Source of the DNA: a virus
Lineage: Duplodnaviria > Caudoviricetes
Direction: 5' to 3' (one strand)
DNA length: 26,303 nt
IMG/VR virus record: IMGVR_UViG_3300012157_000031
Location: 1-26,303 of that record
Shown: in pieces, positions 3,885-26,303 of the stretch
Layout of the letters: the number at the start of each line of letters is the position of its first letter
Position numbering within the stretch: the first letter of the stretch is position 1
Made by a program: the position numbers and the translations under genes
Notes under the pieces: generated by a model
Told to the model about the DNA's origin: nothing
The model's input: the letters and a program-made list of their open reading frames with translations, nothing else
Databases searched by the model: none

Positions 3885-5156
3885 TTAAGGAACAATCCAA
3901 AAATCACCGGGATATGCGCTTAGAGGTTCTGTTGGTTGTTCATATATTGCAACAGCTCTACCCGGAGAACCATCAGCTCCATCCTGTCCATCTATTCCAT
4001 CATATCCAGGGATTCCATCTATTCCATTAATTCCACTTGGTCCTCGCGGACCTACTGCACCTGCTGTTACTGTAGCACCAACATAAGATTGATGAGTCGC
4101 GCCTTCAAAATAAGTAGTTACACTAACATTAGCTGGTCCAGAAACTCTAGCTGCATATAGTTTCCATACAAGCCTCTTAGTAGGGTCTAATGCAAGTCGA
4201 GAAAGTTGATACAAATCCCAATTAACTTCATCAACTGATGTATCAGTAGTAGGGTCGGAATAAGATGAACCAATTAGAGTTTCATTTGTTCCATCTGCAT
4301 CGCAGTAATACATTTCGATAAGTAATCTAGCAAACCCTCCTACTGTCGTAACAGCAGTATGAATATGCCTAAACATTCCACCAGTTTCAAGCCAATATGC
4401 CCCCGGAATTCCTGGCTCACTAACAAAACTAGCTAATAGATTATCACCTACTCCTGCACATACTTGAACAATAGTAGATTCAGCATTAGGAGAAGGACTA
4501 AGTAGAGCCTTAAAATATCCTGCTATATCAGAAGCATCAGTAGGGTCAAACCAAAATACAAGTCCACCATTTCCGCCTGTTAAACCTTGTATACCTTGTG
4601 GACCTTGTATACCCCATTCTCCTATTTCACCTTCAGAACCATCTAATCCCGGAGGACCAGGAAATCCAGACTGTCCAATTTGACCCTGATTTCCTTGTGG
4701 TCCTATGCTTCCTGGCTCTCCATTTTGCCCGTCTTCACCATCTAAACCGGGCATACCTGGAATACCATTTATACCAGATATACCATCTATACCTATTCTT
4801 CCTGGTGGTCCCTGTGGGCCTTCTTCTCCATCTTCACCACCATCCATTATAAATGGTATAGCAGTAGAAATGACTCTACGACCATTGGCATCATTAAATT
4901 GAATTCCAGCGCCAGCTATAGTTTGCAAAGAATTAGGAAGTCCAACCTCCTTATTCTTTGTAAGATATGTGGCACCTAGTAATCCTACTCCACCACCCCC
5001 ACCGCCTCCACCACCACTAACTGCTTGATTAACTGCATCAATATTACCTCGCAAATAGTCAATTAATTGATTAATTACCTGAAATAGAGCAAAATTCTCC
5101 TGTTGTAAACCCGAAGTTAACAGTTGAGATTTTAGTCTATCAAGTGCGTCAGGCAT
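3885..5156 (-). CDS. Collagen-like fibre protein with two Gly-X-Y tracts flanking a globular domain
   Basis: About 31 Gly-X-Y triplets (4560-4838) and 12 triplets (3954-4061), N-terminal helical segment, poly-Gly linker, C-terminal 'PTEP..YPGDFW' motif. Confidence 0.85.
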   Translation of the reverse strand: MPDALDRLKSQLLTSGLQQENFALFQVINQLIDYLRGNIDAVNQAVSGGGGGGGGGVGLLGATYLTKNKEVGLPNSLQTIAGAGIQFNDANGRRVISTAIPFIMDGGEDGEEGPQGPPGRIGIDGISGINGIPGMPGLDGEDGQNGEPGSIGPQGNQGQIGQSGFPGPPGLDGSEGEIGEWGIQGPQGIQGLTGGNGGLVFWFDPTDASDIAGYFKALLSPSPNAESTIVQVCAGVGDNLLASFVSEPGIPGAYWLETGGMFRHIHTAVTTVGGFARLLIEMYYCDADGTNETLIGSSYSDPTTDTSVDEVNWDLYQLSRLALDPTKRLVWKLYAARVSGPANVSVTTYFEGATHQSYVGATVTAGAVGPRGPSGINGIDGIPGYDGIDGQDGADGSPGRAVAIYEQPTEPLSAYPGDFWIVP

Positions 5157-24769: not shown

Positions 24770-24786
24770 GGCAAATTCCATGCCAA
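24770..24786 (-). promoter_or_regulatory. Sigma54 (RpoN) -24/-12 promoter facing the structural operon
   Basis: Minus strand TTGGCATGGAATTTGCC; exact GG-N10-GC, close to the YTGGCACG-N3-TTGCW consensus. Confidence 0.75.
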
Positions 24787-24931: not shown

Positions 24932-25012
24932 TGTCACTTTGAGACAACGATTTATGAGGGTCGTAAGTGACTGACAGGAAGGGGGATAGCGTCCCTGTCT
25001 CGAAAGTGGACA
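24932..25012. promoter_or_regulatory. Two enhancer-like (bEBP UAS) dyads
   Basis: TGTCACTTTGAGACA (24932-24946) and TGTCTCGAAAGTGGACA (24996-25012), near-inverted copies of each other, between the two sigma54 promoters. Confidence 0.5.
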
Positions 25013-25102: not shown

Positions 25103-25119
25103 CTGGCATGGCAGATGCA
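25103..25119 (+). promoter_or_regulatory. Sigma54 (RpoN) -24/-12 promoter for the rightward unit
   Basis: CTGGCATGGCAGATGCA; exact GG-N10-GC; shares TGGCATGG with the leftward promoter. Confidence 0.7.
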
Positions 25120-25140
25120 ATAGAGTAGGGTAGCGAGTCG

Positions 25141-25153
25141 GTTCTTTGAAAAC
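25141..25153 (+). promoter_or_regulatory. rRNA-operon-type BoxA antitermination element
   Basis: GTTCTTTGAAAAC(TGAATA) matches the BoxA form found in rrn leaders/spacers of many bacteria; about 11 nt after the predicted start site. Confidence 0.65.
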
Positions 25154-25169
25154 TGAATAGGGGATTCGG

Positions 25170-25195
25170 GAGTTGTCACCAAACAAGGACAACTC
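25170..25195 (+). promoter_or_regulatory. 8-bp hairpin partly occluding the RBS of the 128-aa gene
   Basis: GAGTTGTC-10 nt-GACAACTC; AAGGA (25185-25189) straddles the loop and 3' arm; ATG at 25198. Confidence 0.7.
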
Positions 25196-25197
25196 AG

Positions 25198-25584
25198 ATG
25201 CAGACCAAAATCGCCAAGTTTACCTTTTCGGTTCCTGAAGGCCATCCAGAGGCAGGGAAAAAGGTAGAGAAGACTTTCGAGTATTCCGTTTGCGACAATC
25301 AGACGGAAGCGGAAACCATCATCACAGATAAGAAATGGTCTGTGGTCGGAATGGTAAACGACATTCTCAAGGCCAATTCACGCAGTAATGCGTATCAGGC
25401 AGCCCTTCTGCCGTATCGGCCTTCCGAGGTATCTGAGGAAGACATCGTTGAACGTATGGTGCGTGATTACATTCGTCTGGGGTTCCCGGAAGATGTCGCA
25501 CGCAAGCAGATTCAGGCCCTCCGCGCAGCAACCGCTGTTGTTCCTGAGACTGACTCCCAGGAACCTCCGGCAGACTCGAACTAA
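25198..25584 (+). CDS. Hypothetical 128-aa protein, first rightward (probably early) gene
   Basis: AAGGA RBS, own promoter and terminator, visibly more G/C-ending codons than the late genes; beta N-terminus and helical C-terminus. Confidence 0.85.
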   Translation: MQTKIAKFTFSVPEGHPEAGKKVEKTFEYSVCDNQTEAETIITDKKWSVVGMVNDILKANSRSNAYQAALLPYRPSEVSEEDIVERMVRDYIRLGFPEDVARKQIQALRAATAVVPETDSQEPPADSN

Positions 25585-25613
25585 CTAGACTCTTGAGTCC
25601 CCTATTCAGTATC

Positions 25614-25649
25614 CCCGGCGGGGTGAAAATCTCCGCCGGGAATTTTTTT
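25614..25649 (+). terminator. Rho-independent terminator
   Basis: CCCGGCGG(GG)...(CT)CCGCCGGG stem followed by AATTTTTTT. Confidence 0.85.
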
Positions 25650-25692
25650 ATATATGGCTGGCGCTTTGCTTATTGTAACTATTGGAGGGAAT

Positions 25693-25944: not shown

Positions 25945-26208
25945 TGGCATGACTTATTGTATGTAGCAAATATGCTATCAGATTTATAACGGAACCGTAT
26001 ACGACCGGATTCTCTACTATTTCCTTACTGATACCCTACTCATTCCGCCCTCTTTCCCCCCTGCCCGATTCGACCTATCTCGTTCATTCCGAAGGACTTA
26101 CAGCTAGGGGAGGGACTCTCCCATGAGGCAATAGGGGCACTTTCAGCCCTTTGTCATCGGAATAGGACACTGGGCTGTCGGGAGTGTGAGAGTTATATCT
26201 TCTCTTTA

Positions 26209-26232
26209 TTTTTTTTTTTTTTTTTTTTTTTT
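26209..26232 (+). repeat. T24 homopolymer in a non-coding region
   Basis: 24 consecutive T. Confidence 0.9.
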
Positions 26233-26303
26233 GTTATGCATGTTGGCCATCCCAGCGTAACGTGCTTTTTTTGTGCGTTCAGCTTCAGAGACGGGTGCGA
26301 TCA

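What the first reader, a model, noticed from the sequence alone, without database searches (positions are those of the whole stretch)
25103..25649. A protein-coding gene arranged like an rRNA: BoxA leader plus a 22-bp helix clamping the whole ORF
Seen: promoter, then GTTCTTTGAAAAC, then a 22-nt arm, the 128-aa ORF, the complementary arm and a terminator. All three DNA-level mismatches between the arms are G-U pairs on the coding strand only, which points to selection on RNA pairing rather than a DNA inverted repeat. Established: in rrn operons BoxA recruits NusB/NusE/NusG/NusA/SuhB, and flanking complementary strands close a long-range stem cut by RNase III. Inference: the phage borrows host rRNA transcription and processing machinery to make an abundant, end-protected or processed mRNA for this one protein. 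I know no described phage system with this layout.
Basis: partly seen in the sequence, partly recalled or inferred. Interest (0 to 1): 0.88.

Follow-up and report, generated by a model that had tools for sequence, protein, structure and literature searches.

The report
rRNA-style clamp gates phage mRNA translation
A small phage gene sits between two complementary sequences just behind the signal bacteria place before ribosomal RNA, a layout that recurs around unrelated phage genes including one in phage T5, and the pairing likely unlocks a hairpin over the ribosome-binding site, so the protein would be made only from finished messages.

Summary
The arms (25152-25174 / 25588-25610) form 23 contiguous pairs; other genes here reach at most 13. 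Among 100 distinct homologous loci, 26 (one clade plus one) carry BoxA and clamp, and 74 carry neither. The arms diverge yet stay paired (96% cognate, 45% swapped). In a motif survey, 27 of 165 viral BoxA sites start a long-range helix (controls 0 of 165), often around unrelated ORFs. All 13 chromosomal matches of the motif lie upstream of 16S rRNA.

The 3' arm is predicted to displace it (opening cost 10.5 to 3.2 kcal/mol; shuffled arm 9.8). This recurs in 20 of 26 family loci, 10 of 16 unrelated cassettes and T5 gene 008 (hdi).

Best reading: the Nus complex holds the leader, the message stays untranslated while being made, and the trailer closes and unlocks it. RNase III cleavage, Nus binding and expression are untested. 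The protein is a predicted homodimer of unknown function. This scan noted the BoxA-plus-clamp layout before on other DNA, including T5.

The parts
25104..25119 (+). Sigma-54-like promoter (GG at 25105-6, GC at 25117-8); predicted start near 25130
   Evidence: Sequence. Strict pattern within 125 nt upstream in 19 of 26 clamp loci and 10 of 74 others. Consensus recalled, function untested.
25141..25159 (+). Extended BoxA; its 3' extension overlaps the start of the 5' arm
   Evidence: Core in 26 of 26 clamp loci and 0 of 74 others. A related 19-base pattern marks 16S leaders in 13 of 13 chromosomal matches.
25152..25174 (+). 5' (leader) arm of the clamp helix
   Evidence: pair probability 0.9-1.0 for the outer 17 pairs, 0.3-0.8 for the inner 6. 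Covariation.
25170..25195 (+). 8-bp hairpin (25170-25177 with 25188-25195) over the end of the Shine-Dalgarno and the spacer; 5 of its 8 5'-strand bases are shared with the clamp
   Evidence: Pair probability 0.90-1.0 in nascent RNA; the outer four fall to 0.30-0.47 in full-length RNA.
25185..25189 (+). Shine-Dalgarno-like AAGGA
   Evidence: Sequence; the GGA core is nearly invariant in 21 aligned clamp loci.
25198..25584 (+). 128-aa ORF: conserved acidic protein, predicted homodimer, no known family; first gene of the arm divergent from the packaging genes
   Evidence: 667 homologues. Codon-position identity 0.81/0.92/0.47. AF2 pLDDT 88.8. Dimer score 0.62 vs best control 0.02.
25588..25610 (+). 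3' (trailer) arm of the clamp helix, starting 3 nt after the stop codon
25614..25649 (+). Intrinsic-terminator-like hairpin and U tract
   Evidence: Such a hairpin directly follows the arm in 5 of 21 standard clamp loci.

Best explanation
This gene is bracketed by a BoxA signal and a covarying leader-trailer RNA helix laid out like those of rRNA operons, and the helix likely works as a switch that lets the message be translated only once it is complete. Step 1 (inferred from E. coli work): host NusB/NusE bind BoxA and tether the leader to RNA polymerase. Step 2 (predicted by folding; conserved): the leader folds an 8-bp hairpin over the ribosome-binding region, so ribosomes do not load on the nascent RNA; the Nus complex probably also keeps this untranslated RNA from Rho. 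Step 3 (pairing shown by covariation, timing inferred): when the 3' arm emerges it is handed to the tethered 5' arm, zips a 23-bp helix and strips most of the hairpin's 5' strand. Step 4 (inferred): the result is a closed-loop mRNA with both ends paired, open to ribosomes and probably long-lived; transcription stops at the terminator behind it. RNase III trimming may follow but is not needed for the model. The clamp replaced two local hairpins that flank the same gene in related phages.
For: Clamp: 23 contiguous pairs vs at most 13 at 31 other genes. Bimodal family, 26 of 100 with clamp and BoxA, 74 with neither. Variable helix positions are 96% paired in cognate and 45% in swapped combinations, with 3-5 pair types per position, in 20 distinct loci. 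BoxA: 13 of 13 matches in 6 of 201 genomes lie upstream of 16S, and the rrn helix starts right behind it in 2 of 2 operons. About 790 viral stretches hold the motif vs 27 for the reversed pattern. Generality: helix score >=14 behind 27 of 165 viral BoxA sites, 0 of 165 upstream controls; 0 of 21 reversed-pattern sites reach 13; G-U 39 vs A-C 7. Switch: cost of opening -14..+3 is 7.9 kcal/mol for clamp leaders alone, 4.6 with own arm, 8.4 with shuffled arm, and 3.6 in the 74 non-clamp leaders; lowered by more than 0.5 in 20 of 26. Window 10.5 to 3.2 (shuffled 9.8 +/- 1.7); T5.008 9.6 to 4.2 (shuffled 9.5 +/- 1.2). 10 of 16 non-family cassettes lowered by more than 2, vs 2 of 16 with shuffled arms. 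19 of 21 standard loci share 3-8 bases between hairpin and clamp. Literature: BoxA-Nus loop blocks translation of the nascent suhB mRNA (PMC5725501); Nus tethering model for leader-trailer pairing (PMC4807359; PMC10250234).
Against: No RNA, binding or cleavage data; every switch number is a folding prediction, and the clearest ones replace the coding sequence by a 12-A linker. Full-length equilibrium folding shows only a small gain in ribosome-site accessibility (0.46 to 0.51; up in 19 of 26, p=0.06), and the inner four hairpin pairs persist at 0.65-0.83 in the window. The arm raises the opening cost in 3 of 26 family loci and changes it by 0.5 or less in 3. 6 of 16 non-family cassettes show no switch, so gating is not the universal purpose. 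Tight nascent closure is only weakly tied to the clamp outside the family (10 of 16 vs 5 of 20, p=0.06). Results for L384 and L394 flip with the start codon and arm limits chosen. The 26 family loci are one clade plus one (2 changes on the tree), so BoxA-clamp co-occurrence there is one or two events. In suhB, BoxA promotes rather than prevents Rho termination. Host unknown.
Confidence: 0.55

Rival explanations
1. The helix is mainly an RNase III (or Mini-III) processing stalk: it is cut to release a trimmed monocistronic, possibly ligated, mRNA from a longer early transcript.
For: Geometry matches rrn leader-trailer helices, which RNase III cuts (PMC10250234 passages). Helices are about 17-29 bp with freely changing sequence. 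In most clamp loci a further gene follows within about 40 nt with no separate terminator hairpin. A second BoxA-like motif follows the arm in several loci, as in rrn spacers.
Against: Does not explain why clamp leaders carry an anti-RBS hairpin shared with the arm. In the window the unit has its own promoter-like site and terminator, so there is nothing to excise it from. A cut could release the anti-RBS strand and close the site again (inference).
Confidence: 0.2
2. The clamp only protects and defines the ends, acting as a 5' and 3' nuclease barrier and, with the U run behind it, as a terminator stem whose loop is the whole gene. The hairpin is incidental.
For: Non-clamp homologues mostly show a short 5' hairpin and a 3' hairpin that the clamp class lacks (by eye). 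The 16 standard loci without a hairpin directly behind the arm have 4-7 T in the 8 nt after the helix (14 of 16 have 5 or more); the 5 with a hairpin have 0-2. A 14-bp 5'/3'-UTR pairing protects B. subtilis hbs mRNA (PMC5737220 abstract). 6 of 16 unrelated cassettes have no switch.
Against: Clamp leaders are more closed than non-clamp leaders (7.9 vs 3.6 kcal/mol) and only the cognate arm opens them. The T run may instead be a degenerate second BoxA or pair with the first. The terminator contrast rests on about two events.
Confidence: 0.15
3. The element is a brake: BoxA represses translation and invites Rho as at suhB, and the 5'-3' duplex marks the mRNA for decay as at icaR, keeping a host-toxic protein low or delayed.
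For: BoxA lies about 45 nt from the start codon, inside the range that represses suhB (PMC5725501). The T5 case encodes a growth inhibitor (PMC10714956 listing). Two clamped ORFs are GIY-YIG nucleases.
Against: The 3' arm is not complementary to the Shine-Dalgarno; it pairs with the anti-RBS strand and is predicted to open the site. Non-clamp homologues have near-consensus sigma-70 promoters and open ribosome sites, which suggests selection for high output.
Confidence: 0.07
4. The arms are a DNA inverted repeat bounding a mobile or invertible cassette.
For: Inverted repeats bracket exactly one ORF, and the ORFs between arms vary across phages.
Against: Arm sequence differs from locus to locus while pairing is kept. 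G-U bias is strand-specific (39 vs 7). No locus has the BoxA core on the reverse strand behind the gene (0 of 100). The gene sits divergent from the same 191-aa neighbour with (14 of 14) and without (44 of 53) arms.
Confidence: 0.03

Closest known systems
rrn operon leader: BoxA/Nus complex (NusB, NusE, NusG, NusA, SuhB, S4) plus 16S leader-trailer helix (PMC10250234, PMC4807359; passages read)
   Same: Extended BoxA followed at once by a 5' arm that pairs with a trailer; helix over 17 bp; free sequence turnover with covariation.
   Different: Encloses a protein-coding ORF with its ribosome-binding site, not an rRNA; the 5' arm doubles as an anti-RBS strand; no room for boxB; sigma-54-like promoter.
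BoxA-mediated translational repression of E. coli suhB and C. koseri CKO_00699 (PMC5725501; passages and Discussion read)
   Same: BoxA within about 50 nt of a start codon; translation blocked while the RNA is being made.
   Different: There the outcome is Rho termination, and no flanking helix appears in the parts read; here a trailer arm is predicted to open the site after synthesis.
[quoted passage not shown]
   Same: Phage gene with BoxA-dependent translational control and a double-stranded leader element.
   Different: The lambda stem is local to the leader and the system needs boxB and N; here the stem closes around the whole ORF.
Type I toxin mRNAs aapA3 and hok: metastable anti-SD hairpins and 5'-3' long-distance interaction (PMC6733600; passages read)
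   Same: Co-transcriptional hairpin hides the ribosome site and is then replaced by a 5'-3' pairing.
   Different: Opposite sign: there the full-length fold is inert and needs 3' trimming; here the full-length pairing is predicted to activate. BoxA is not part of those systems in the passages read, and this protein is not a small membrane toxin.
5'/3'-UTR pairing in B. subtilis hbs (protective; abstract read) and S. aureus icaR (repressive; review passages, PMC7821165)
   Same: Intramolecular 5'-3' duplex around a coding sequence.
   Different: Shorter pairings, no BoxA described in what I read; icaR pairs with the SD itself, whereas here the trailer pairs with the anti-SD.
ORF-bearing intervening sequences of 23S rRNA (PMC4990558; search listing only)
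   Same: ORF enclosed in a stem in an rrn-type context; RNase III excision is recalled.
   Different: An IVS lies inside rRNA; here there is no rRNA, and the protein matches no Pfam family.

Membership tests
rrn leader-trailer system | BoxA sequence of the rRNA-leader type | tested here: met
   A pattern differing from the window's motif only in allowing C or T at two places marks 16S leaders in 13 of 13 matches (all of the T variant), 6 of 201 genomes of one phylum. B. subtilis consensus AUGAUCUUUGAAA binds NusB.
rrn leader-trailer system | Leader-trailer helix over 17 bp right behind BoxA, with covariation | tested here: met
   23 bp; 96% vs 45% pairing; same geometry in 2 of 2 rrn operons.
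rrn leader-trailer system | Encloses an rRNA | tested here: not met
   No Rfam match in the region; encloses a conserved ORF. It works like the system but is not a member.
rrn leader-trailer system | boxB hairpin upstream of BoxA | tested here: inconclusive
   Only about 10 nt lie between the predicted start and BoxA, with no local hairpin, but the start is itself a prediction.
rrn leader-trailer system | NusB/NusE binding and RNase III cleavage | not testable with these tools
   Needs biochemistry or RNA end maps.
suhB-type BoxA translational repression | BoxA within about 50 nt of the start codon | tested here: met
   BoxA ends at 25151-25153, ATG at 25198; the TTGA anchor lies 44-73 nt before the start in 26 loci.
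suhB-type BoxA translational repression | Premature Rho termination inside the gene | not testable with these tools
   No expression data.
Type I toxin-antitoxin mRNA | Small hydrophobic toxin | tested here: not met
   128 aa, pI 4.9, 21 D+E and 16 K+R; beta-hairpin plus helices.
Type I toxin-antitoxin mRNA | 5'-3' pairing keeps the full-length mRNA inert | tested here: not met
   Predicted to open, not close, the ribosome site; prediction only.
Type I toxin-antitoxin mRNA | Antisense antitoxin RNA | not tested
   Not looked for.
23S rRNA intervening sequence | Inserted within rRNA | tested here: not met
   No rRNA match around the ORF; phage gene neighbourhood.
Mobile or invertible IR-bounded cassette | Conserved terminal repeats, variable position or orientation | tested here: not met
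   Arms diverge; 0 of 100 inverted; fixed neighbour.

The most novel reading that the evidence does not exclude
Many unrelated phages, T5 among them, have independently turned the rRNA BoxA/leader-trailer machine into a bacterial closed-loop translation licence. The Nus complex carries the 5' end along, translation is uncoupled from transcription, and the arriving trailer both terminates the transcript (a terminator whose loop is the entire gene) and unlocks the ribosome site, so only full-length early mRNAs are translated.
Probability: 0.35. Interest if true: 0.92.

Novelty: new variant of a known kind. Interest (0 to 1): 0.8.

Why it matters
The bacterial 5'-3' mRNA pairings I found described either repress or protect. 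One that activates translation, delivered by the Nus complex, would be a new way to uncouple translation from transcription and a new job for Nus factors. It would also give a protein-output readout for how the Nus complex hands a leader to a trailer, a question raised for rRNA in the papers read. The layout is common (about one in six of the viral BoxA sites examined), and T5 gene 008 makes it testable at once in E. coli with nusB and rnc mutants. It may also be a portable design for stable, full-length-only expression.

Tried and rejected
Rfam: no credible match in the region, and none in 20 BoxA-clamp loci.

Protein function: no Pfam or PHROG family for the protein or for more than 3 of 97 homologues. 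No tblastn match in GenBank phages. No usable Atlas hit. No Foldseek match at E <= 0.001 in viral (first model) or PDB. Best VIA Z was 3.6, which is inconclusive. Only a weak C-terminal likeness to RuvA domain III (E 0.002, alongside a designed repeat protein), which I do not take as function.

Host: the genome scan gave one weak partial hit, so the host is unassigned. No RNA holder was listed.

L073 looked like an rRNA leader by a short motif, but Rfam did not confirm it.

A MAFFT alignment of the flanks was unusable on the 3' side, so covariation was counted by sequence anchors. The first anchor was wrong for 7 of 21 loci (81% vs 47%) and was corrected. Gapped pairing scores let controls reach 47, so ungapped strand-neutral scoring was used. 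The BoxA core pattern was widened by one position to cover all 26 clamp loci, so 26 of 26 is partly by construction; 0 of 74 is not, though L305 has a near-match without a clamp.

The T5 'inverted repeat A/A'' label quoted in earlier notes did not appear in the passages I saw of 10.1101/866236; its supplements, which describe further repeats, were not seen.

Full report
CONTEXT. The window is a linear virus record, 57% complete. The minus strand carries terminase, tail-fibre and GH108 endolysin genes and a weak capsid match; the nearest named terminases are under 30% identical, so the phage is unclassified and its host unknown. The 128-aa ORF (25198-25584) is the first gene transcribed away from the packaging genes. 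It is a real gene: 667 homologues at 90% clustering, 110 hits among 50% representatives, a few of the weakest probably spurious, and third codon positions vary most (0.81/0.92/0.47).

OBSERVATION. The arms at 25152-25173 and 25589-25610 are the top inverted repeat of the region. As RNA they give 23 contiguous pairs, against at most 13 for the flanks of 31 other genes and at most 14 in 1000 shuffles. The helix is in both the minimum-energy and the centroid fold (z -4.6). BoxA ends where the 5' arm starts. A terminator-like hairpin follows. The upstream site is not sigma-70-like but has GG-N10-GC spacing (25104-25119; sigma-54 consensus recalled), which puts the start near 25130.

FAMILY TEST. 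I gave 185 loci (the window and hits). Eighteen were dropped for a missing start, stop, anchor or flank, and the other 167 collapsed to 100 distinct. Pairing scores are bimodal: 26 loci score 41-62 and 74 score 31 or less. All 26 have the BoxA core and none of the 74 does; the pattern was fitted to the 26, and L305 has a near-match without a clamp. The 74 mostly have a sigma-70-like promoter (60 of 74) and, by eye, a short 5' hairpin and a 3' hairpin. On a tree of 92 distinct proteins the clamp needs 2 changes (shuffles: at least 16), so it arose about once and the 26 are not independent. What carries weight is the divergence within that clade. Own arms give the best duplex in 20 of 26 loci (mean -29.4 vs -15.1 kcal/mol). 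In 20 distinct loci of standard geometry (of 21; 5 loci with a longer leader left out), ten variable positions are 96% paired, against 45% for swapped partners and 41-55% for slid registers, with 3-5 pair types each. G-U against A-C was 16:10 in one count and 16:3 in another. The gene keeps the same divergent neighbour with and without arms (14 of 14; 44 of 53), and none of 100 loci is inverted, which rules against a mobile DNA cassette.

IS IT BOXA? A 19-base version of the motif matched 13 places in 6 of 201 genomes of one phylum (reversed control 0). All 13 lie about 190 nt upstream of 16S rRNA. In the two operons fetched, the leader strand of the 16S leader-trailer helix begins immediately after it. 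B. subtilis NusB binds a boxA of this UUUGAAA type (PMC13753749, passages). In viral contigs a related pattern occurs in about 790 stretches (estimate) vs 27 reversed, and 7 of 20 hand-picked motif loci checked hold tRNA genes, mostly in arrays.

IT IS A GENERAL PHAGE LAYOUT. Of 287 loci from three BoxA scans, 165 distinct sites had enough flank. A helix scoring 14 or more starts behind 27 of them, against 0 for an upstream control window; at 13 the figures are 30 and 2, and 0 of 21 reversed-pattern sites reach 13. Scoring was strand-neutral, and the non-Watson-Crick positions in those 30 helices are 39 G-U to 7 A-C; 3 of the 30 are family members and some others are relatives of each other. 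Many enclose one ORF that fills 84-95% of the loop. These ORFs are unrelated to this protein, except perhaps L049, and mostly to each other; most match no family, and two are GIY-YIG nucleases. Earlier notes of this scan pointed to T5. I checked: a boxA at 4988 (minus strand) is followed by an arm that pairs over about 26 bp with the sequence behind T5.008, 4715-4918. The hdi paper contains no 'boxA', 'RNase' or 'nus' (PMC10714956, term search).

THE MISSED PART: AN ANTI-RBS HAIRPIN. In the window, 25170-25177 pairs with 25188-25195, covering the end of the Shine-Dalgarno and the spacer. Five of its eight 5'-strand bases also belong to the clamp. In nascent RNA these pairs have probability 0.90-1.0; in full-length RNA the outer four fall to 0.30-0.47 while the inner four stay at 0.65-0.83. 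The cost of opening -14..+3 falls from 10.5 to 3.2 kcal/mol with the own arm and stays at 9.8 +/- 1.7 with shuffled arms (coding sequence replaced by a linker). Across the 26: 7.9 alone, 4.6 with own arm, 8.4 shuffled; lowered by more than 0.5 in 20, raised in 3; non-clamp leaders cost 3.6. In 19 of 21 standard loci, 3-8 bases are shared, and in several the trailer's inner end copies the hairpin's 3' strand (L006, L164, L192). Outside the family, 10 of 16 cassettes drop by more than 2 kcal/mol (2 of 16 with shuffled arms), and T5.008 drops from 9.6 to 4.2 (shuffled 9.5 +/- 1.2). Against this: whole-transcript folding shows only 0.46 to 0.51 accessibility (p=0.06); 6 of 16 cassettes lack the switch; the link between closure and clamp outside the family is weak (p=0.06); and L384 and L394 depend on the start chosen.

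MECHANISM. Shown: the parts, the covarying helix, the identity of the motif with rrn BoxA, and recurrence in unrelated phages. Predicted: hairpin and displacement. Inferred from E. coli: Nus factors loop BoxA to polymerase (PMC4807359, passages), the tethered leader is poised to meet the trailer (model described in PMC10250234, passages), and a BoxA loop blocks ribosome loading on nascent mRNA (PMC5725501, passages and Discussion). Together: transcribe untranslated, close the clamp, open the ribosome site, translate a closed-loop message. I put this at 0.55, and the RNA-level reality of the clamp at about 0.95. The main rivals are an RNase III stalk (0.2) and pure end protection or termination (0.15). 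For the latter, the 16 standard loci without a hairpin directly behind the arm have 4-7 T in the next 8 nt, while the 5 with one have 0-2. That suggests the clamp can itself be the terminator stem, though it rests on about two events and the T run may be a second BoxA. These rivals can coexist with gating.

PROTEIN. AlphaFold2 with 97 sequences gives a beta-hairpin and four helices (pLDDT 88.8, pTM 0.50). A homodimer is supported by the model but not shown: score 0.62, best control 0.02, runs agree in at least 87% of contacts, pLDDT at least 80; the mark was reached by 20 of 30 solved homodimers and 1 of 23 single chains. The protein is acidic (pI 4.9). My guess, by position and conservation only, is an abundant early host-interacting factor.

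NOVELTY. Each part has a precedent: the rrn leader-trailer helix, suhB repression, lambda N, type I toxin mRNA folding (PMC6733600, passages), hbs (abstract) and icaR (review passages). In those mRNAs the 5'-3' pairing represses or protects. Searches of the open-access library listed no paper on a BoxA plus whole-ORF helix in a phage mRNA, or on a trailer that frees the ribosome site; subscription journals are largely missing from that library. The scan's own notes describe the BoxA-plus-clamp layout on other DNA, one with an anti-SD; none shares sequence with this locus. Verdict: a real, widespread new variant of the rRNA leader-trailer system, interest 0.8.

Noticed in passing
window 24770-24785 (- strand), 25104-25119 and 25655-25669 (+): Three sigma-54-like GG-N10-GC sites. 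A divergent one facing the packaging genes is present in 17 of 17 clamp loci and 28 of 60 others vs 0.3% of shuffles, so this phage group may rely on sigma-54-type promoters.
   Followed up: partly
window 24932-24946 and 24996-25012: Two TGTC-N7/9-GACA palindromes between the divergent promoters, resembling enhancer-binding-protein sites (resemblance recalled).
   Followed up: no
non-clamp family loci, e.g. L025, L017, L212, L233, just after the stop codon: 3' hairpins have variable stems but recurring loops (GACTGCAAAC, GACAGCAAAC, GACTGAATATC, GACTGTATATC), and 5' hairpins share a GCAATT-type loop; possibly protein-recognised.
   Followed up: no
L165, L167, L169, L166, L001, after the 3' arm: A second BoxA-like motif follows the trailer arm, as in rRNA spacers, ahead of the next gene.
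   Followed up: no
L050 and L048 (adjacent units), L113, L423: BoxA-clamp units of 220-490 nt with no ORF of 45 aa or more; L050 runs straight into a second BoxA unit; L113 lies beside tRNA genes. Candidate unknown non-coding RNAs.
   Followed up: partly
L384, L414: Clamped ORFs are GIY-YIG nucleases; no Rfam intron match. These and L357, L360, L372 and L375 form a group with little or no predicted switch.
   Followed up: partly
L114, L047, L086, L069, L094, L059, L113: The extended BoxA sits in or beside phage tRNA genes.
   Followed up: partly
L492 (T5) 4682-4988, - strand: boxA, 5' arm with anti-RBS strand, T5.008 and 3' arm: the same layout in a laboratory phage.
   Followed up: yes
window 26208-26233: A run of about 26 T almost uninterrupted near the contig end; relative L237 has a similar T run.
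   Followed up: no
L170, L162, L005, L161, L011: A longer-leader version: degenerate BoxA in most, arm displaced 8-20 nt downstream, and in some a hairpin over the start codon that the arm barely opens.
   Followed up: partly
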